A program made the translations under genes and the position numbers. From positions 4,321 to 68,320 of the forward strand of contig JACRKU010000024.1 of the NCBI GenBank assembly GCA_016215205.1: DNA of 64,000 nt, in the 5' to 3' direction. The notes under the pieces were generated by a model, which ran no database searches, was not told where the DNA came from, and saw only the letters and a program-made list of their open reading frames with translations. This DNA comes from Candidatus Yonathbacteria bacterium. GTDB taxonomy: Bacteria; Patescibacteriota; Minisyncoccia; Phycocordibacterales; UBA1550. Below, piece by piece: positions 2,499 to 8,202 of the stretch; the first letter of the stretch is position 1; each line of letters begins with the position of its first letter.

Positions 2499-3503
2499 AT
2501 GGAACAACTAGATTTCGTAGGCATCGGAGACACGGTCGTAGATGCTTTTATACGCCTTCGCGAGGACCAAGCACACACGACTGTTTGCAAGATTGATGCT
2601 AACGCATCGGAGATCTGCATGCCATTCGGCGCAAAAGTTCCATATGATTTTGTAAAAGTCGTTTACGCCGTCGGAAACAGCGCCAATGCGTGCGTGTCCG
2701 CGTCGCGTCTCGGTCTCAAAAGCGCGCTCATAACAAATCTCGGCAATGATGATGACGGCGCAAAATGCGTCGCATCGCTTAAAAAAGACGGTGTCAGCAC
2801 AGAGTATGTAAAACAATATAACGACATCAAGACAAATTATCACTATGTGCTCTGGTACGGCAGTGAGCGCACGATTCTCATAAAGCACGAGGTGTTCCCT
2901 TATATTCTGCCGCAAGATTTTGTGGGGCCCAAATGGCTATACCTAAGCTCACTCGGTGAAACTTCACTTGATTTTCATCACGAAATCGCAACTTATCTCG
3001 CCGCGCATCCCGAAACCAAGCTCGCATTTCAGCCGGGAACATTCCAAATAAAACTCGGTACGGATGCACTCAAAGATTTATACGCGCATACGGAAGTTTT
3101 CTTCTGCAATGTTGAAGAGGCGCGCCTCATCTTGAAAACAGACGAGCCGGAACCAAAAAAGCTCGCGCGAATGATGACCGCCCTCGGACCAAAAATTACG
3201 GTCATTACCGACGGACCAAAGGGCGCGTATGTATTCGACGGCACAGATGTTTGGTTTATGCCGGTTTACCCGGACATAGCGCCGCCGTATGACCGCACCG
3301 GCGCGGGCGATTCGTTTGCTTCAACATTTATCGCGGCGCTCGCGCTTGGCAAGGAGCCGCGCGAGGCTGTCACATGGGCGCCCGTGAACTCAATGTCTGT
3401 CGTACAGAAAATCGGCGCTCAAGAAGGACTCCTGTCGCGCGCAGAGCTTGAAAAATATCTAGCGGAAGCACCTGCGGATTATAAAGCGGTGAAATTGGAT
3501 TAA
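2499..3503 (+). CDS. PfkB-family carbohydrate kinase (ribokinase-like)
   Basis: 334 aa; C-terminal DRTGAGDSF anion-hole motif of ribokinase/PfkB kinases; N-terminal GxGD-type glycine motif. The sugar substrate cannot be assigned. Confidence 0.8.
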   Translation: MEQLDFVGIGDTVVDAFIRLREDQAHTTVCKIDANASEICMPFGAKVPYDFVKVVYAVGNSANACVSASRLGLKSALITNLGNDDDGAKCVASLKKDGVSTEYVKQYNDIKTNYHYVLWYGSERTILIKHEVFPYILPQDFVGPKWLYLSSLGETSLDFHHEIATYLAAHPETKLAFQPGTFQIKLGTDALKDLYAHTEVFFCNVEEARLILKTDEPEPKKLARMMTALGPKITVITDGPKGAYVFDGTDVWFMPVYPDIAPPYDRTGAGDSFASTFIAALALGKEPREAVTWAPVNSMSVVQKIGAQEGLLSRAELEKYLAEAPADYKAVKLD

Positions 3504-3504
3504 G

Positions 3505-3559
3505 CGCAAAATAAAACATCCAGCCTGCCAGCTGGCAGGCTGGATGTTTTATTTTGCGC
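3505..3559. terminator. Bidirectional intrinsic terminator between convergent pfkB-like and tkt-C genes
   Basis: About 26-bp perfect palindrome gcgcaaaataaaacatccagcctgccagc / gctggcaggctggatgttttattttgcgc, with A/T runs on both sides. Confidence 0.7.
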
Positions 3560-4534
3560 TTACAAAAGTTTCTTCACTGCTTTTTTGATGGAATCCTTAT
3601 CCATTCCGTAATGCTTCACGAGCTCCTCAGGCTTCCCCGACTGCCCAAATTGATCCTGCACGCCAACGAATACAATCTTAGTCGGATGTTCCATTGCAAG
3701 GACTTCGGCAACTGCCGAACCCATTCCTCCTGCAACTTGATGTTCCTCGACAGTGACAATTGCGCCACATTCTTTTGCAAGCTTCACAATCGCCCCGCGG
3801 TCAATCGGCTTCACGGTACCGATATTTAAAACAACTGCGCCGACTACCTCTCCTTCGAGTTCTTTTGCCGCAATGAGCGCATTGTATACGAGCGAACCGC
3901 ACGCAATGATGCCGACTTTGGGTGCAAGCGACGAGCGGAAAAATTCTTGCGCTTTTCCAATCTCAAAAGGCGTGTCCTCTGCCGTGATGATAGGAGTTTT
4001 TTCACGAGCGAGACGAATGTACGTTGGTGAATTTGTTTTCGCCATTGCGATAGTTGCTTTGCGCGCCTCAACGCTGTCGCATGGGGTAATTACCACCATG
4101 CGCGGCATCACGCGCACGAGCGCGATGTCTTCGATTGCTTGATGCGTGCCGCCATCGGGACCAACCGAAACTCCCGCATGCGAGCCCGCGATTTTCACCG
4201 GGCGGTCATTATAGCAAATGTTTGTGCGAATCTGCTCCCAATTTCTGCCGGGAGAAAACATCGCGTACGACGACACAAACGGCACCTTCCCCATCGCCGC
4301 CATTCCGCTTGCCACCGATGCCGACGACTGCTCCATAATTCCCATCTCAAAAAATCGCTTAGGAAATTCTTTTGCGAACGCATCCATCTTTGTGGATTCA
4401 GTAAGGTCGCAACACATCGCCACCACGCGCTCATCCGCACGCCCCGCAAGCACCAGCCCCTCGCCAAAACCCGCGCGAATCGGCGCTTGTTCTACATCAG
4501 TATCAAAAAGTTTTGGGTTGAGTGGGATGTTCAT
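3560..4534 (-). CDS. tkt: Transketolase, C-terminal (pyrimidine-binding) subunit
   Basis: 324 aa with characteristic blocks GEGLVLAGRADERVVAMCCDL, MGIMEQ, VGPDGGTHQAIEDIA. It lacks the TPP-binding N-terminal half, which is encoded separately at 5159-6028. Confidence 0.9.
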   Translation of the reverse strand: MNIPLNPKLFDTDVEQAPIRAGFGEGLVLAGRADERVVAMCCDLTESTKMDAFAKEFPKRFFEMGIMEQSSASVASGMAAMGKVPFVSSYAMFSPGRNWEQIRTNICYNDRPVKIAGSHAGVSVGPDGGTHQAIEDIALVRVMPRMVVITPCDSVEARKATIAMAKTNSPTYIRLAREKTPIITAEDTPFEIGKAQEFFRSSLAPKVGIIACGSLVYNALIAAKELEGEVVGAVVLNIGTVKPIDRGAIVKLAKECGAIVTVEEHQVAGGMGSAVAEVLAMEHPTKIVFVGVQDQFGQSGKPEELVKHYGMDKDSIKKAVKKLL

Positions 4535-4558
4535 ATCTTACCTTAATTACAGTATACA

Positions 4559-4828
4559 TTAAATTTCATACACATTCGATCTATGGCCGATACACGCAAC
4601 CATCAACAAGCGTTCATCTCAACATATTTTATATATCACCCGATAATCACCAATCCTTAACTTAAAAAACCCGACCCACTCTCTTTCAAGCGGCAAAGGC
4701 ACCACCTGGTCAAAATTGCCTTCAGGCCATTCAAGCTTTCTGTGTACGCTCACGCGAATTTTCTTATCTAGCCCAAGAAAATTCTTCTCCGCATCTTTTG
4801 TTAAAACAATTTTCCACGCTTGCACCAT
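4559..4828 (-). pseudogene. RelE/ParE-family toxin interrupted by in-frame TGA (likely inactivated toxin)
   Basis: From the in-frame ATG (MVQAWKIVLTKDAEK...FKLRIGDYRVIYKIC) the frame hits TGA at 4619-4621. The same frame then continues DERLLMVACIGHRSNVYEI and ends at TAA 4559-4561. The segment after the TGA carries the conserved RelE/ParE C-terminal IGHR..VY motif, so the full 90-codon toxin is split by one stop. Confidence 0.6.
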
Positions 4829-4838
4829 AATAACGGGA

Positions 4839-5033
4839 TTAGTTTTTCCTACTAAACTCTTTAAGTGCAATCAGTTTTTTAGGATTTACCTTTTGAGCTT
4901 TTTTAAGTTGTTTTATTGTTTGAGATGACAACATCATGCCAAAATCAGGATCAGCAAAAATCTCCTGAACGGACTCAATAATTGTTTGGCGTACGAGAGA
5001 TTGCAATTGTCTTTGTTGAACGATTGTATTCAT
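4839..5033 (-). CDS. Putative antitoxin cognate to the RelE/ParE-like toxin
   Basis: Small ORF (64 aa from the ATG; the track start is TTG at 5075) located 10 nt upstream of the toxin start, the classic antitoxin-toxin arrangement. No family-specific motif recognised. Confidence 0.5.
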   Translation of the reverse strand: MNTIVQQRQLQSLVRQTIIESVQEIFADPDFGMMLSSQTIKQLKKAQKVNPKKLIALKEFSRKN

Positions 5034-5158
5034 AATTATTATATTACCACAGGCACTAGTCTTTGTAAAAATCAATTTCCATCAAAAATTTTGGGTTGAG
5101 GGGGGTCATGTTTCTATTTATTAAAGTCCGCGTTCATTCCGCGTCTAGTCCGCATCTA

Positions 5159-6028
5159 CTATTCGTGCTCACTCTCAATCTGCCCGCCGAGCGTACGAAG
5201 CTCTGCCATCGCATTCGCACCCTGTTCTTTGTCTGGCGGGTTGCCGTGCCACTTGAAGTCGCGCTGAAACATTTCAACACCCTTGCCCGGAATAGTGTGC
5301 GCGATTATGACTGACGGCTTTTCAAAGATCGCTTTTGCTTCATCAATCGCATCAACAATCGCAGACATATTGTGTCCGTCAATCTCGAGAACGTGCCAGC
5401 CGAATGCTGCCCACTTATCCGCAAGCGGTTCGAGGGGCATCACGTTTTCCGTAAAGCCGTCTATTTGGATATTGTTGCGGTCTACAACGGCGACGAGGTT
5501 GTGAAGCTTTTCGCGACCCGCTAGCATCGCCGCCTCCCAGATTTGCCCTTCGTTCAATTCACCGTCGCCCAAAAAAGAGTAAATGGTTCTGTTTGAGCTT
5601 TGTCCGCGGTCGAGGCGGTCCGCAAGCGCCATCCCCACTGCCTGCGAAAGCCCTTGTCCAAGAGGACCGGAGCTTGTTTCAAGCATCGGCAAATACTCGC
5701 GGTGCGGATGCCCCTGAAGTCGTGTGCCGAATTTGCGGAGCGTTTTTAATTCTTTTACAGGGAAATATCCCGCGTGCGCCATCGCCGCATACATCACCGG
5801 GCAAATGTGGCCGTTGGAAAGCACTAGTCGGTCACGGTCTTCCCACTCCGGATTCTTTGGGTCGTGTTTGAGAATATGAAAATAAAATGCGGTAAAAATA
5901 TCCGCCATGCCGAGCGGTCCCGCCGTGTGTCCGGACTTTGCTTCAACAAGCGATTCAATAATCGACTTCCTGATCTCAAGCGCTTTCTCTTCGAGAAATT
6001 TTATTTTGTCGTCGTGGAGATGGGTCAT
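5159..6028 (-). CDS. tkt: Transketolase, N-terminal (TPP-binding) subunit
   Basis: 289 aa; blocks SGHTAGPLGMADI, GDGELNEGQIWEAAMLA, GHPH; TAG stop. Separated from the C-terminal subunit by the TA cassette. Confidence 0.9.
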   Translation of the reverse strand: MTHLHDDKIKFLEEKALEIRKSIIESLVEAKSGHTAGPLGMADIFTAFYFHILKHDPKNPEWEDRDRLVLSNGHICPVMYAAMAHAGYFPVKELKTLRKFGTRLQGHPHREYLPMLETSSGPLGQGLSQAVGMALADRLDRGQSSNRTIYSFLGDGELNEGQIWEAAMLAGREKLHNLVAVVDRNNIQIDGFTENVMPLEPLADKWAAFGWHVLEIDGHNMSAIVDAIDEAKAIFEKPSVIIAHTIPGKGVEMFQRDFKWHGNPPDKEQGANAMAELRTLGGQIESEHE

Positions 6029-6032
6029 AAGA

Positions 6033-6704
6033 CTATGATACTAGATTTCTCATTTCAGTGATAGCTTGAGTAAAATCATCGCTCCCAAGTATCGCCGAGC
6101 CGGACACGAGACGCGTTACTCCGGCATCTACAAGCCTCTTTGCGGTTTCCATATTTACAGCGCCGTCGACGCTGATAGGCATATCTGGGCGCGTACTTCG
6201 TGCCACACGCACTTGGTCGAGTACGCGCTCATCAAAAGCTTCTCCCTGAAAACCGATGCGCGCGATACCCATACACTGCACAAAGTCGATACGGTGGCAA
6301 AATGGCGCGAGTGTCTGGATTGGAGTCGTGGTATTTATCGCGAGACCGAGTTCGATAAGCCCCTCCGGTACTGCCGCGCGAATTTTTTCAAAATCCTTCA
6401 TTGATTCCACATGCACAATAATACGCCGAGCGCCGGCGGAAACCCATTTGGGCACCGCAAGCTCGGGATTCTCTATCATCAAGTCAACTTCAAAATCAAG
6501 TGTTTCCCACTCGGGCATCCCCTCTTCCTCAGCGACAATGGCGTCAAAATGCGCATCCCGCGGATACGGCCATGTGCGCTCGGGTACAAATTTTCCGTCC
6601 ATGATGTCGAGCTGCACAAGAGGAACAACACCCGCAAAAAGACTCATCATCTCATCAAGATGCTCGTAGTCCTTTGGCATTATCGCGGGAATAATCTCTA
6701 TCAT
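6033..6704 (-). CDS. rpe: Ribulose-phosphate 3-epimerase
   Basis: 223 aa; LDIMDGKFVP and SVDGAVN blocks typical of Rpe. Confidence 0.85.
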   Translation of the reverse strand: MIEIIPAIMPKDYEHLDEMMSLFAGVVPLVQLDIMDGKFVPERTWPYPRDAHFDAIVAEEEGMPEWETLDFEVDLMIENPELAVPKWVSAGARRIIVHVESMKDFEKIRAAVPEGLIELGLAINTTTPIQTLAPFCHRIDFVQCMGIARIGFQGEAFDERVLDQVRVARSTRPDMPISVDGAVNMETAKRLVDAGVTRLVSGSAILGSDDFTQAITEMRNLVS

Positions 6705-6710
6705 AAAAAA

Positions 6711-7151
6711 TTATTTATCCAGTTTTTGAATTCTTCGCTCGTGCCGTTCATCGCCCGAAAAAGGTGTTTCGAGCCACACGCGCACCACTTCTTTCGCTTC
6801 GTCTTCTTCAATGAACCGCGCACCGAGAGAGAGGATGTTCGCATCATTGTGCTCGCGCGAGAGTACCACGATATCCACAGTACCTCCATAGTAGACTGCC
6901 GCGCGCGCGCCGGGCACCCTGTTTGCGCACATCGCTTCACCCTGACCAGAACCGCCAAGTATAATTCCGCGCGACTTGGGGTCGCGAGCAACATTTTCCG
7001 CAACCGGACGAATGAAATCCGGATAGTCATCGAGGCTATCGAACTTATGCGCGCCAATATCCTCCACCTCATGTCCGCGCGCGCGAAGAAATGGAATAAG
7101 CGATTCCTTGAGTTCAAACCCTGCGTGGTCGGTGCCGATATAAATGCGCAT
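6711..7151 (-). CDS. rpiB: Ribose-5-phosphate isomerase B
   Basis: 146 aa; MRIYIGTDHAGFELK N-terminus and GGSGQGEAMCANR block of RpiB/LacAB family. Confidence 0.85.
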   Translation of the reverse strand: MRIYIGTDHAGFELKESLIPFLRARGHEVEDIGAHKFDSLDDYPDFIRPVAENVARDPKSRGIILGGSGQGEAMCANRVPGARAAVYYGGTVDIVVLSREHNDANILSLGARFIEEDEAKEVVRVWLETPFSGDERHERRIQKLDK

Positions 7152-7158
7152 GATGCTG

Positions 7159-8202
7159 TTAAAGATTCTCTGCCACCTTAACTACATGTTTTACCAAAGT
7201 GTTCGTGTAACCCATTTCATTGTCATACCACGACATAACTTTCACGAGGTTGCCGTCCACCACGCGCGTCAAATCAAGGTCGGCAATCGCGCCATAGAGA
7301 GTTCCCACAATATCAGACGACACAAGGGGCTCATCGGTGACCGTAAAGATACCTTCCCATCGCGGGGTTTTTGAGGCATCGCGCAAAATTTTGTTTACCT
7401 CTAGAACACTGGTGTTCCTTTTTGCGATGAACGTAATGTCGGCGATAGAGCCGGCAATAATCGGCACGCGCACGGCGATGCCGTCAAACTTGCCCTTCAA
7501 ATCAGGCACCGCTTCCGTGACAGCAATAGCCGCACCCGTCGATGATGGCACCATGTTTGCCGCACCCGCGCGCCCACCGCGAAGGTCTTTGCCGCCGGGA
7601 CCGTCCACAATTTTTTGCGTACCGGTGTACGCGTGCGTGGTGTTAAGCACTGCTTTCTCAATACCAATAGTTTCATTCAAAATAGTAATGACCGGCGAAG
7701 CGGCGTTTGTCGTGCACGAAGCATTTGAAGAAATCTGACATGTCGCAAGTTTTTCATCGTTGATACCCATAAGCACGGTCGCACCGGTGATACCCTCAAT
7801 CATTTCGCCTTTCACTGGCGCAGTAATTACAACTCGTTTTGCGCCTGCATCCAAATGCACTTTTGATTTTTCGTAGCTCGTGTAAAAGCCGGTTGATTCA
7901 ACCACGACATCAATGTCGTACTTTGCCCACGGAAGTTTCGTTGCGTCTTTTTCCTGAATCAAAACAACTTTTTCCACACCAACGCGGAAACCCGGCTCCT
8001 CGCCATTGCCGGGAGGGACGACTGCCACATCGAAGTCCGCGCGCCCGTACGCGGTGTCGTACTTGAGGAGATACGCCATGTTCTCTGGGTCGCCGAGGTC
8101 GTTCACCGCCACAATCTCAAGCTCTGGTTGCGTGCGCGCCAACTTATAAAACGCGCGTCCTATGCGCCCAAACCCATTAATCGCTACTCGTGTCTTTTTC
8201 AT
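7159..8202 (-). CDS. gap: Type I glyceraldehyde-3-phosphate dehydrogenase
   Basis: 347 aa; INGFGRIGR NAD-binding N-terminus, ASCTTN catalytic Cys block, WYDNE C-terminal block. Confidence 0.9.
   Translation of the reverse strand: MKKTRVAINGFGRIGRAFYKLARTQPELEIVAVNDLGDPENMAYLLKYDTAYGRADFDVAVVPPGNGEEPGFRVGVEKVVLIQEKDATKLPWAKYDIDVVVESTGFYTSYEKSKVHLDAGAKRVVITAPVKGEMIEGITGATVLMGINDEKLATCQISSNASCTTNAASPVITILNETIGIEKAVLNTTHAYTGTQKIVDGPGGKDLRGGRAGAANMVPSSTGAAIAVTEAVPDLKGKFDGIAVRVPIIAGSIADITFIAKRNTSVLEVNKILRDASKTPRWEGIFTVTDEPLVSSDIVGTLYGAIADLDLTRVVDGNLVKVMSWYDNEMGYTNTLVKHVVKVAENL

What the first reader, a model, noticed from the sequence alone, without database searches (positions are those of the whole stretch)
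4502..5104. Toxin-antitoxin cassette inserted between the two halves of a split transketolase, flanked by about 25-bp direct repeats that duplicate the tkt-C start region
The transketolase N-subunit (5159-6028) and C-subunit (3560-4534) genes are separated by a RelE/ParE-type toxin-antitoxin pair. The sequence atcaaaaaGttttgggttgagTggg at about 4502-4526 covers the first codons of tkt-C (M-N-I-P-L-N-P-K). It reappears as atcaaaaa-ttttgggttgagGggg at about 5081-5104, immediately beyond the cassette, and even retains a vestigial ATG-ACC-CCC-CTC-AAC-CCA-AAA reading frame. A target-site-duplication-like repeat bracketing exactly the toxin and antitoxin genes indicates the cassette was inserted into an originally adjacent tktN-tktC pair, leaving a fossil copy of the junction.
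Basis: seen in the sequence. Interest (0 to 1): 0.6.

Follow-up and report, generated by a model that had tools for sequence, protein, structure and literature searches.

The report
Toxin-antitoxin insert with duplicated gene start
A small toxin-antitoxin gene pair sits between the two halves of a split transketolase in a Candidatus Yonathbacteria genome, and beside it lies a 29-base worn-down copy of the downstream gene's start, the remnant of an old insertion that duplicated about 100 bases of its target; this type of insertion was already described for restriction-modification genes.

Summary
The 12-mer CTCAACCCAAAA occurs only twice in the 64-kb window (0.01 expected). One copy is in the true tktC start (4502-4534). 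The other is in a vestigial start (5081-5109), 49 nt after the tktN stop. Together they bracket a promoter, a 64-aa antitoxin and a RelE/ParE toxin.

The "target-site duplication" reading is wrong in kind. The same cassette and both of its junctions recur in related Yonathbacteria-like genomes. There the vestigial copy is about 107 nt (L084) or 62+31 nt (L093), and 29 nt in L081. [quoted passage not shown] It is not a transposon footprint.

The ancestor probably already had a small membrane-protein gene between tktN and tktC, so the pair was not "originally adjacent" at the time of insertion.

Among 77 relatives, 42% carry co-oriented cargo at this junction. Duplicated ends of neighbouring genes also flank inserts at tktN, rpiB and a PBP2 gene.

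The window's toxin is dead: Trp70 TGG has become TGA. A second lineage carries TAG at the same codon.

Verdict: a new variant of a known kind, of moderate interest.

The parts
5159..6028 (-). tktN, the transketolase N-terminal (thiamine-diphosphate-binding) subunit. It forms the upstream flank of the insertion site.
   Evidence: PF00456, E = 2e-65. 79-89% identical to tktN of Yonathbacteria-like loci.
5110..5158 (-). A 49-nt spacer between the tktN stop and the fossil start. It is probably a remnant of an older, larger array.
   Evidence: GACGCGGAATGAACGCGGACTT matches GAACGCGGAATGGACGCGGGCTT, which precedes a decayed membrane-protein ORF in L091/L092. The match is short, so it is only suggestive.
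5081..5109 (-). Fossil tktC start (ATGACCCCCCTCAACCCAAAATTTTTGAT). This is the eroded upstream copy of a long target duplication.
   Evidence: It is orthologous to the L081 fossil (27/29 nt identical) and to the first part of the ~107-nt (L084) and 62+31-nt (L093) fossils. It opens an 18-codon ORF (5056-5109) that ends inside the promoter spacer.
5041..5069 (-). The cassette's own sigma-70-type promoter: TTTACA, 17 nt, TG-TAATAT. The -10 box ends 7 nt before the antitoxin ATG, so the mRNA is leaderless or nearly so.
   Evidence: Consensus scan. The same layout is conserved upstream of the antitoxin in L081, L084, L088, L089, L090 and L093. No experimental evidence.
4839..5033 (-). Antitoxin gene, 64 aa, apparently intact. 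It belongs to no curated family.
   Evidence: No Pfam or NCBIfam hit. Fifteen homologues at 68-100% identity, all in Parcubacteria, each followed by the ParE/RelE toxin wherever the context was read. Predicted as three helices (pLDDT 73) with no PDB fold match.
4559..4828 (-). RelE/ParE-superfamily toxin gene, inactivated by a nonsense codon. Codon 70 is TGA (4619-4621) where relatives have TGG (Trp). Homology continues in frame to the TAA at 4559-4561.
   Evidence: PF05016 scores 23.9 bits for the 69-aa product and 37.8 bits, covering profile positions 1-89, when read through. Relatives encode 89 aa with ...YKICWDD...GHRSxVY. Codon alignment. The rest of the window is densely coding when read with the standard code (table 11), so TGA acts as a stop here.
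4535..4558 (-). A 24-nt stretch between the toxin stop and the tktC ATG (TGTATACTGTAATTAAGGTAAGAT). It is the right end of the cassette and carries an AAGG ribosome-binding motif for tktC.
   Evidence: Conserved in WIN, L081, L084 and L093 (96% identical between WIN and L081). It differs from the sequence upstream of the fossils and of tktC starts not adjacent to the cassette. No terminator-like site lies in 4400-5300.
4502..4534 (-). The real tktC start, which is the downstream copy of the duplication (ATGAACATCCCACTCAACCCAAAACTTTTTGAT).
3560..4534 (-). tktC, the transketolase C-terminal subunit, intact. It forms the downstream flank.
   Evidence: PF02779 and PF02780. 83-89% identical to relatives.

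Best explanation
In an ancestor of this Yonathbacteria-like lineage, a promoter-bearing type II toxin-antitoxin cassette of about 550 bp was inserted immediately upstream of tktC, inside the gap-rpiB-rpe-tktN-tktC operon. The cassette comprises an unclassified 64-aa antitoxin and an 89-aa RelE/ParE toxin, and it carries no mobility gene.

The insertion duplicated roughly the first 105-110 bp of tktC. This matches the class called 'insertion with long target duplication'. The downstream copy stayed joined to tktC and kept the gene intact. The upstream copy became a fossil. Deletions have since whittled the fossil down to different lengths in different descendants, leaving 29 nt in this window and in L081.

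How the duplication arose is inferred, not shown. The likeliest route is illegitimate, microhomology-guided joining of incoming or copied DNA by host recombination or replication functions, not by an element-encoded transposase or integrase.

The cassette is transcribed from its own promoter, in the same direction as the operon, and no terminator lies before tktC. In this genome the toxin has been killed by a Trp70 TGG->TGA nonsense mutation. What remains is an antitoxin gene plus a truncated toxin lacking the C-terminal GHRxxxY segment.
For: 1. Repeat and gene anatomy are as described.

2. Empty sites exist. Of 77 relatives, 35 have an intergenic gap of 30 bp or less, and L001 (85% aa identity) has 4 bp. 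In these genomes the tktC start sequence occurs once.

3. The same cassette lies directly upstream of tktC in L081, L082/83, L084-87/L094, L088, L091/92 and L093. The right junction is orthologous across them (toxin stop-TGTATACTGTAAT...ATG).
   - The left junction is shared by WIN and L081 (TTTTGAT|RGAAATTGATTTTT).
   - Another left junction is shared by L084 and L093 (GCGGATGRTTTTTCYTTGTAAAC).

4. Fossil lengths: about 107 nt at about 90% identity in L084; 62 nt at 94% plus 31 nt at 97% in L093; partial pieces in L082 and L088; 29 nt in WIN and L081; none in L091/92.

5. Nothing in the insert resembles a transposase or integrase, and the flanks have no significant secondary structure.

6. 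The same signature appears at other sites and with other cargo.
   - L089: the same toxin-antitoxin family sits after a PBP2 gene, bracketed by a 44-nt copy of that gene's 3' end plus hairpin.
   - L017: a Gp49/HTH toxin-antitoxin pair is bracketed by a 28-nt copy of the tktN 3' end, joined at the microhomology GGTAA-ATAA.
   - L070 and L069: 38- and 33-nt fossil rpiB starts lie next to inserted genes.
   - L044, L009, L068 and L046: further fossil tktC starts.

7. The described class shares the key properties: long, variable target duplications of 30-400 bp, no linked mobility genes, insertion into operons, and mostly competent hosts (PMC2853133, PMC3874152). Patescibacteria are reported to carry comEC and pilus DNA-uptake genes and recombination genes (PMC12455944).

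8. Toxin decay is documented.
Against: - In the window alone the repeat is only 29-33 nt with a 3-nt and a 1-nt indel. It therefore fails the >30-bp criterion of the described class. The long-duplication reading rests on orthology with L084 and L093.
- The different left junctions (WIN/L081 against L084/L093 against L088) could reflect independent insertions and not erosion of one event.
- The fossils of WIN, L081 and L084 are one codon shorter than the adjacent real starts. That fits a donor-derived downstream copy better than a strict in-situ duplication.
- No within-species empty-site allele was found. The exact-match metagenome scan returned nothing.
- The molecular mechanism of long target duplication has never been demonstrated, here or elsewhere.
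Confidence: 0.62

Rival explanations
1. Homology-anchored import. The cassette arrived on donor DNA from a related genome together with the donor's tktC 5' end. One end recombined homologously within tktC. The other end joined illegitimately a short way into the recipient's tktC (homology-facilitated illegitimate recombination), or a circular cassette-plus-repeat integrated by a single crossover. On this view the fossil is the recipient's own start, and the working start came in with the cassette.
For: - Fossils in WIN, L081 and L084 are of the 'short' type (M-x-P-LNPK), like the real starts of L002 and L090. The adjacent real starts are of the 'long' type (M-x-I-P-LNPK) with a shared upstream GTAAGATATG.
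- Between WIN and L081, the block from fossil to tktC nt 63 is 87-96% identical, against 79-80% for tktN and the rest of tktC. Four-fold synonymous codons are identical at 20/28 in the toxin-antitoxin genes against 32/84 in tktN.
- The first 63 nt of tktC show 70% identity at four-fold codons across the clade, against about 33% further in and 37-58% at the 5' ends of neighbouring genes.
- tktN and tktC give different nearest neighbours.
- An analogous model has been published for T6SS and Rhs displacement arrays (PMC5361080).
Against: - In L093 the fossil and the real start share a lineage-specific second codon (ATGAAAATCCCA) and are 94-97% identical. This fits in-situ duplication or gene conversion better.
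- L091/92 carry the cassette next to a short-type start.
- Duplicated gene ends at unrelated sites (PBP2, rpiB, tktN 3') would each need a donor that already carried that arrangement.
Confidence: 0.22
2. Site-specific recombination. The conserved first ~60 nt of tktC act as an attachment site for a recombinase encoded elsewhere. Cassettes would be inserted there one after another, as in an integron, each regenerating the site.
For: - 42% of relatives carry cargo at this junction, the highest of the four operon junctions.
- 54 of 58 cargo ORFs are co-oriented with the operon.
- Fossils separate successive cargo genes in L084, L046 and L044.
- Synonymous sites at the tktC 5' end are unusually conserved.
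Against: - Fossil right ends vary from 22 to about 107 nt, and left junctions differ, so there is no fixed crossover point.
- No integrase lies in or next to the inserts whose gene tables were read.
- No attC-like structure: the folds of the flanks are not better than shuffles.
- Similar duplications occur at unrelated sequences (PBP2 3' end, rpiB 5' end, tktN 3' end).
- Other operon junctions are also occupied (8-36%).
Confidence: 0.08
3. A classical transposon-type target-site duplication of about 25 bp, made by a transposase cutting the target with a stagger.
For: Direct repeats bracket exactly the inserted genes.
Against: - No transposase and no terminal inverted repeats are present.
- The copies differ by two indels.
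- Orthologous fossils reach about 107 nt, far beyond the <10-bp direct repeats that typical DNA transposons leave (PMC2853133), and their length varies.
Confidence: 0.03
4. Chance similarity of two A/T- and G-rich stretches.
For: The sequence is of low complexity (A and T runs, G run).
Against: - The 12-mer occurs twice against 0.01 expected.
- The second copy lies exactly where a tktC start would sit, and it has an ATG in register.
- Orthologous and longer copies exist in relatives.
- A loose tktC-start motif is about 50-fold enriched in tktN-tktC gaps and is found only on the coding strand there.
Confidence: 0.01

Closest known systems
Insertion with long target duplication of restriction-modification gene units (Nobusato et al. 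2000, Gene 259:99; Furuta, Abe & Kobayashi 2010, PMC2853133)
   Same: A small, self-contained 'addiction'-type gene unit with no transposase or integrase is inserted between conserved genes, often inside an operon and co-oriented with it. It is flanked by direct repeats tens to hundreds of bp long and of variable length. These repeats are copies of a target sequence that occurs once in empty-site genomes. Fusion of an inserted gene to a duplicated gene end also occurs there; here the L089 toxin is fused to the duplicated PBP2 gene tail.
   Different: The cargo here is a type II toxin-antitoxin pair, and in relatives also membrane proteins and other small genes, not a restriction-modification system. 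DNA cleavage by the cargo, which those authors suggested as a possible common cause, therefore cannot explain it. The host is a Patescibacteria (CPR) lineage. The event is old and the window's copy has eroded to 29 nt. Repeated events at one junction build arrays.
Displacement arrays of polymorphic toxin loci, i.e. Rhs, CDI and T6SS effector-immunity arrays (Kirchberger et al. 2017, PMC5361080; Jackson et al. 2009; Poole et al. 2011, as cited there)
   Same: Serial gain of modules next to a conserved anchor gene leaves behind strings of displaced fragments of that gene. The proposed mechanism is homology-facilitated illegitimate recombination followed by spread through ordinary homologous recombination.
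   Different: In those loci the anchor is the 3' part of the toxin gene itself, and the displaced pieces are orphan toxin tips and immunity genes with a plausible selective role. Here the anchor is the 5' end of a housekeeping gene, and the cargo is functionally unrelated to it.
RelBE/ParDE-type type II toxin-antitoxin modules
   Same: An upstream small antitoxin gene is followed 10 nt later by an ~89-aa RelE/ParE-fold toxin with the C-terminal GHRxxxY segment. The pair has its own promoter. The toxin is often found mutated.
   Different: The antitoxin matches no curated antitoxin family and is predicted to be all-helical. The toxin here is truncated at codon 70.
Integron cassette arrays
   Same: Several small, co-oriented cargo genes of mixed function, rich in toxin-antitoxin pairs, are stacked at one site and separated by repeated sequence.
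   Different: There is no integrase, no attI/attC structure and no fixed recombination point. The repeats are pieces of the neighbouring gene.

Membership tests
RelE/ParE superfamily type II toxin | Sequence match to the family profile above the curated threshold | tested here: met
   PF05016 scores 37.8 bits (cut-off 23) over profile positions 1-89 when the TGA is read through, and 23.9 bits for the 69-aa product. The best PDB sequence hits are RelE-like: Rv2866, RelE, YoeB and YafQ. TIGR02385 (RelE_StbE) scores 26.2, below its cut-off of 27.9, so the subfamily is not settled.
RelE/ParE superfamily type II toxin | Complete reading frame including the C-terminal segment that holds conserved Arg/Tyr residues (catalytic in E. 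coli RelE, from my own knowledge) | tested here: not met
   Codon 70 is TGA. Relatives have TGG followed by ...GHRSxVY. The gene in this window is a pseudogene or encodes a truncated protein.
RelE/ParE superfamily type II toxin | Paired with an adjacent small antitoxin gene in one transcription unit | tested here: met
   The 64-aa ORF ends 10 nt before the toxin ATG. The pairing is conserved wherever a homologue's context was read.
RelE/ParE superfamily type II toxin | Toxicity and its neutralisation by the antitoxin | not testable with these tools
   This needs expression assays.
Insertion with long target duplication (criteria of Furuta et al. 2010) | Insert shorter than 20 kb with no mobility-related genes | tested here: met
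   The insert is about 550 bp and holds only a promoter, antitoxin and toxin.
Insertion with long target duplication (criteria of Furuta et al. 2010) | Flanking direct repeat longer than 30 bp | tested here: inconclusive
   The window has 29 nt against 33 nt, with indels, which is below the threshold. Orthologous insertions have about 107 nt (L084) and 62+31 nt (L093). The criterion is therefore met for the event but not for this copy.
Insertion with long target duplication (criteria of Furuta et al. 2010) | An empty-site genome in which both flanks align and the repeated sequence occurs once | tested here: met
   L001 has tktN, 4 bp, then tktC with a single start sequence. Of 77 relatives, 35 have a gap of 30 bp or less. 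Caveat: the comparison is between species-level lineages (about 85% aa identity), not strains of one species.
Transposon with target-site duplication | Transposase, terminal inverted repeats, and a short duplication of fixed length | tested here: not met
   None of these is present. Duplication length varies from 22 to about 107 nt among orthologues.
Integron cassette or site-specific integrative element | Integrase, a structured attC/att site, and a fixed crossover point | tested here: not met
   No integrase lies in the insert or in the neighbouring genes that were read. The flanks fold no better than shuffles. Fossil ends vary. The rest of the 64-kb window was not scanned for recombinases.
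Homology-facilitated illegitimate recombination product | One junction inside a homologous anchor with a switch of ancestry, the other at a microhomology | tested here: inconclusive
   Microhomology is seen in L017 (GGTAA-ATAA) and possibly in L084 (GGATGA). The toxin-antitoxin block and tktC 5' end diverge less than the flanks. However, L093 argues for an in-situ copy.

The most novel reading that the evidence does not exclude
The first ~60-110 nt of tktC, and to a lesser degree other gene ends in this operon, may serve in Paceibacteria as a reusable docking sequence for an integrase-free cassette system. In this reading, small promoter-bearing or promoterless genes are captured one after another from environmental DNA. 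Each capture regenerates an intact gene start and leaves a fossil copy. The resulting repeats then let cassettes be excised, shuffled and passed between lineages by ordinary homologous recombination. This would amount to a recombination-driven, integron-like accessory-gene array embedded in a core metabolic operon of ultra-small bacteria.
Probability: 0.15. Interest if true: 0.75.

Novelty: new variant of a known kind. Interest (0 to 1): 0.42.

Why it matters
Three points make this more than a routine annotation.

1. Long-target-duplication insertion is not peculiar to restriction-modification genes or to Proteobacteria. It also places toxin-antitoxin pairs and other small genes inside tightly packed core operons of Patescibacteria. 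That argues against DNA cutting by the cargo as the cause and points to host recombination, probably acting on taken-up DNA.

2. It gives a concrete picture of how genomes with almost no intergenic space can gain genes without breaking their neighbours: the end of the neighbouring gene is duplicated.

3. The series of orthologous loci, with fossils of about 107, 93, 29 and 0 nt, forms a natural time course of how such footprints decay. Two independent stop codons at Trp70 show the toxin being disarmed repeatedly.

For annotating this window the result is modest: a decaying toxin-antitoxin cassette and a 29-nt pseudo-start that should not be called as a gene.

Tried and rejected
- **Integron attC idea.** GTTGAGT/GTTGAGG resembles the GTTRRRY core, but there is no partner inverse core, no significant hairpin and no fixed crossover. 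Dropped.
- **TGA recoding.** Considered as an explanation for the in-frame stop. Rejected because the window is densely coding when read with the standard code (table 11) and relatives have TGG at that codon.
- **Start type as a marker.** I hoped the 'long' start type (M-x-I-P-LNPK) would mark a cassette-borne tktC start. This held in five toxin-antitoxin-adjacent loci but fails in L091/92, and L001 has a long start with no cassette. It is kept only as weak evidence.
- **Metagenome exact-match scan.** A 31-mer spanning codon 70 was searched for same-species alleles. No hits.
- **Rfam search of the hairpin element** that follows fossil starts in L009, L044 and L068. Nothing relevant.
- **nhmmer profile of tktC 5' ends.** It found the fossils in L044, L009 and L068 but was too insensitive for the window's 29-nt copy.
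- **Fold search of the antitoxin model against the PDB.** No match.
- **Did the insertion split a once-fused transketolase?** Rejected. All relatives, with or without cargo, have separate tktN and tktC ORFs.
- **Is the fossil ORF (18 codons, conserved between WIN and L081) a functional leader peptide?** Not supported, because it is absent or different in L082, L084, L088, L091 and L093.
Full report
**1. What is in the window**

On the minus strand the window carries a pentose-phosphate/glycolysis operon. In order it reads: gap (7159-8202), rpiB (6711-7151), rpe (6033-6704), tktN (5159-6028), a two-gene insert, and tktC (3560-4534).

The insert has these parts:
- A sigma-70-like promoter: TTTACA at 5069-5064, a 17-nt spacer, and TG-TAATAT ending at 5041, which is 7 nt before the ATG.
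- A 64-aa ORF at 5033-4839 with no Pfam or NCBIfam family.
- Ten nt later, a RelE/ParE-superfamily toxin gene starting at 4828.

The toxin frame is interrupted by TGA at 4619-4621, yet homology continues in frame to the TAA at 4561-4559. Pfam PF05016 rises from 23.9 bits for the 69-aa product to 37.8 bits, covering profile positions 1-89, when the stop is read through. The best sequence matches in the PDB are RelE-like proteins.

Twenty-four nt, containing an AAGG motif, separate the toxin stop from the tktC ATG. No terminator-like site lies between 4400 and 5300.

The antitoxin is 100% identical to a protein of a Candidatus Yonathbacteria MAG (HZB11_02745), which identifies the organism.

**2. 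The repeat is real**

The real tktC start reads ATGAACATCCCACTCAACCCAAAACTTTTTGAT (4534->4502). Forty-nine nt after the tktN stop lies ATGACCCCCCTCAACCCAAAA-TTTTTGAT (5109->5081).

- The shared 12-mer CTCAACCCAAAA occurs nowhere else in the 64 kb. Shuffles expect 0.01, and 0 of 100 shuffles gave two or more.
- A 24-nt pattern with up to three mismatches also finds only these two sites.
- It is the only such repeat within 4 kb in the window that touches a gene start.

**3. Relatives show an insertion**

A genome scan with TktC returned 80 Paceibacteria/Parcubacteria loci. Of these, 77 also hold tktN upstream.

- In 35 of them the two genes are no more than 30 bp apart. L001, at 85% identity, has 4 bp between them and a single start sequence.
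- The fossil in the window aligns base for base with the real starts of L002 (ATGACCCCACTTAATCCAAAA, MTPLNPK) and L090.

**4. It is not a transposon-type target-site duplication, and it is not recent**

The antitoxin has only 15 homologues among 5.8 billion proteins, all from Parcubacteria. Their genomic contexts were read.

In L081, L082/83, L084-87 (= L094), L088, L091/92 and L093 the same antitoxin/toxin pair lies directly upstream of tktC. The right junction is the same throughout: toxin stop, TGTATACTGTAAT..., ATG.

The state of the fossil differs among these loci:

| Locus | Fossil | Left junction / note |
|---|---|---|
| WIN | 29 nt | TTTTGAT\|GGAAATTGATTTTTAC |
| L081 | 29 nt, 27/29 identical to WIN | ATGATCCCCCTCAACCCAAAACTTTTGAT\|AGAAATTGATTTTTGC; same junction as WIN |
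| L084 | ~107 nt at ~90% identity to its own tktC | reaches ...GEGLVLAGRA and joins the promoter region at GCGGATGATTTTTCTTTGTAAAC |
| L093 | 62 nt at 94% plus 31 nt at 97% | same junction as L084; the two pieces are separated by a ~58-nt insertion |
| L082, L088 | partial pieces | – |
| L091/92 | none | – |

The simplest reading is one old insertion that duplicated at least 105 nt of the tktC 5' end. Lineage-specific deletion followed, sparing the cassette promoter. The window and L081 keep only the first 29 nt.

Nothing in the insert resembles a transposase or integrase, there are no terminal inverted repeats, and the flanks have no significant secondary structure.

**5. The recipient probably already carried cargo**

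In L081 and L084 the fossil start follows directly on the stop of a 61-63-aa membrane-protein ORF (MEKIKEYKG...). In L090 the same ORF abuts the real tktC, with the toxin-antitoxin pair upstream of it.

L091/92 carry a decayed copy of that ORF. The sequence before it (GAACGCGGAATGGACGCGGGCTT) matches the window's 49-nt spacer (GACGCGGAATGAACGCGGACTT).

The window therefore looks like a reduced array, not a single clean insertion into an adjacent tktN-tktC pair.

**6. The pattern is general in these genomes**

Of the 77 unbiased relatives, 32 (42%) have at least 140 bp between tktN and tktC. The other operon junctions are occupied less often: rpe|tktN 22%, rpiB|rpe 8%, and gap|rpiB 36% of a smaller sample.

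Cargo ORFs are co-oriented with the operon in 54 of 58 cases. The cargo includes:
- six Gp49 (HigB-like) toxins and seven HTH_3 antitoxins;
- one PemK/MazF toxin;
- DUF5654, DUF1653, a 23S-rRNA-IVP protein and a Bro-N protein;
- many small membrane proteins without a family.

The closest named relative, L003 (Yonathbacteria), has a membrane protein plus a Gp49/HTH pair at this site.

Extra fossil tktC starts occur in L044 (two), L009, L068 and L046. All are on the coding strand. A loose motif for the start is about 50 times denser in these gaps than elsewhere in the loci.

Duplicated ends of neighbouring genes also bracket inserts at other places:
- **L089.** A 70%-identical copy of the same toxin-antitoxin cassette follows a PBP2 gene. 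It is flanked by a 44-nt repeat of that gene's last codons, stop and hairpin, and the toxin is fused to the duplicated tail.
- **L017.** A Gp49/HTH pair is flanked by a 28-nt copy of the tktN 3' end. The join is at the microhomology GGTAA-ATAA, and the repeat restores the overlapping start of the next gene.
- **L070 and L069.** Fossil rpiB starts of 38 and 33 nt lie next to inserted genes, an IS200-like gene in L070.

**7. Comparison with what is known**

This is the anatomy that Kobayashi's group named "insertion with long target duplication". In that class, restriction-modification units without mobility genes are inserted, often into operons. They have long and variable direct repeats (30 to over 400 bp) of a target that is single-copy in empty-site genomes, and most cases are in naturally competent species (PMC2853133; PMC3874152; operon insertion is noted in PMC4615327).

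Those authors suggested that DNA breakage by the restriction enzyme might be the common cause. The cargo here has no such activity, which argues for a host-driven process.

A second close analogue is the displacement array of Rhs, CDI and T6SS loci. For these, homology-facilitated illegitimate recombination followed by homologous spread has been proposed (PMC5361080).

Patescibacteria are reported to encode comEC/pilus DNA uptake and recombination functions (PMC12455944).

**8. Mechanism: what is shown and what is inferred**

Shown:
- insertion relative to empty sites;
- long, variable duplication of the neighbouring gene end;
- absence of mobility genes;
- erosion of the fossil;
- co-orientation with the operon and an own promoter-like site.

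Inferred: the duplication was produced by illegitimate, microhomology-guided joining.

Two variants cannot be separated with these data.

*(a) True in-situ target duplication.* This is favoured by L093, where the fossil and the real start share a lineage-specific second codon and are 94-97% identical. It is also favoured by the unrelated sites listed in section 6.

*(b) Import of the cassette together with a donor tktC 5' end.* This is favoured by:
- the one-codon difference between fossils (short type) and adjacent real starts (long type) in WIN, L081 and L084;
- the lower divergence of the whole block from fossil to tktC nt 63 between WIN and L081 (87-96% against 79-80% for the flanking genes; four-fold synonymous codons identical at 20/28 against 32/84);
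- the strikingly low synonymous divergence of the first 63 nt of tktC across the clade (70% identity at four-fold codons against about 33% further in; 37-58% at the 5' ends of tktN, rpe, rpiB and gap);
- discordant nearest neighbours for tktN and tktC.

Gene conversion between the repeat copies could blur either signal.

A dedicated site-specific system is unlikely. Junction positions vary, no recombinase is linked, and other sequences are duplicated in the same way.

**9. State of the module**

All relatives encode an 89-aa toxin with Trp at codon 70 (TGG). The window has TGA.

L092 has TAG at the same codon, while L091, from a sister sample, matches L092 at every other aligned position of the toxin 3' end and keeps TGG. 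The toxin has therefore been knocked out independently twice, and one of the null alleles is polymorphic.

The truncated product lacks the C-terminal ...GHRSxVY segment. This segment corresponds to the region holding catalytic Arg/Tyr residues in E. coli RelE (from my own knowledge, not tested here). The antitoxin gene and promoter are intact.

The antitoxin is predicted as three helices (pLDDT 73) and has no PDB fold match. Its DNA-binding mode and family remain open.

**10. Verdict**

It is wrong in treating the repeat as a ~25-bp target-site duplication bracketing a recent insertion into an adjacent gene pair.

The best description is an old insertion with long target duplication, now eroded, at a junction that is a favoured landing place for small accessory genes in Paceibacteria. 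This is a new variant of a known kind. It is of moderate interest, chiefly because it extends that poorly understood insertion mode to toxin-antitoxin cargo and to ultra-small bacteria, and because it supplies a graded series of natural examples.

Noticed in passing
window 4619-4621 (minus strand); L092 ~1724-1726: Toxin codon 70 (Trp, TGG in relatives) is TGA in the window and TAG in L092. L091, from a sister sample and identical to L092 at every other aligned position of the toxin 3' end, keeps TGG. These are two independent knock-outs at the same codon.
   Followed up: yes
L089 3888-3931 and 4483-4526: A 70%-identical copy of the same antitoxin/toxin cassette lies after a PBP2 (mrdA-like) gene instead of at tkt. 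It is bracketed by a 44-nt direct repeat of that gene's last codons, stop and terminator-like hairpin. The toxin ORF runs into the duplicated tail, giving 95 aa.
   Followed up: partly
L017 2151-2178 and 2795-2822: A Gp49(HigB-like)/HTH toxin-antitoxin pair is bracketed by a 28-nt copy of the tktN 3' end. The join lies at a 10-nt microhomology with the antitoxin's own 3' end. The duplication preserves both the tktN stop and the overlapping start of the next gene.
   Followed up: partly
L070 168-205 / 1041-1078; L069 326-358 / 1079-1111: Fossil rpiB starts of 38 and 33 nt lie upstream of inserted minus-strand genes, followed by the real rpiB. The inserted gene in L070 looks IS200/Y1-transposase-like by eye.
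   Followed up: partly
L009 3895-3964; L068 3895-3964; L044 1192-1248 and 1318-1373: A 57-70-nt hairpin element with conserved ends (GACCCC ... GGGGCRRGAC) sits directly after a 48-nt fossil tktC start, with no ORF. L044 has two tandem units of fossil plus hairpin. There is no Rfam match, and only the L009 copy folds significantly better than shuffles.
   Followed up: partly
L082 3840-3900; L083; L084 766-800; L088 ~1400-1460; L093 1817-1874: A short element GAATCAGC(AG/TG)A...GTCTTGGRC recurs inside fossil tktC copies of several lineages. It may itself be a degenerate, reiterated piece of tktC nt ~50-75.
   Followed up: no
tktC first 63 nt (window 4472-4534) and orthologues: Synonymous divergence is strongly suppressed here. 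Identity at four-fold codons is 70%, against about 33% in the rest of the gene and 37-58% at the 5' ends of tktN, rpe, rpiB and gap. The last 63 nt of rpe also stand out, at 84%.
   Followed up: partly
Many loci, e.g. L018, L020, L028, L031, L035 (tktC start): Most Paceibacteria TktC proteins begin MLNPKLKLNPKIF..., which is an in-frame tandem LNPK...LNPK. This could be a retained short duplication of the same gene start. That is speculation.
   Followed up: no
window 3501-3562: A perfect 31+31-nt inverted repeat with no loop lies between the convergent pfkB-like gene (2499-3503) and tktC (stop at 3560). It is probably a bidirectional terminator. Relatives L081 and L082 have a HicAB toxin-antitoxin pair in this interval instead.
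   Followed up: no
L081 2197-2810: An MNT/HepT (nucleotidyltransferase/HEPN) toxin-antitoxin pair lies between rpe and tktN in the sister genome, with only 6 nt after rpe and no visible fossil. The window lacks this pair.
   Followed up: no
window 5031-5046: The -10 box of the cassette promoter ends 7 nt before the antitoxin ATG and there is no Shine-Dalgarno motif, suggesting a leaderless antitoxin mRNA. The layout is conserved in seven related loci.
   Followed up: partly
L084 1-710: In this contig the array (fossil, Gp49/HTH pair, membrane ORF, fossil, toxin-antitoxin pair, tktC) is not preceded by tktN. About 700 nt of apparently non-coding sequence lie there instead, so the locus has been rearranged.
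   Followed up: no
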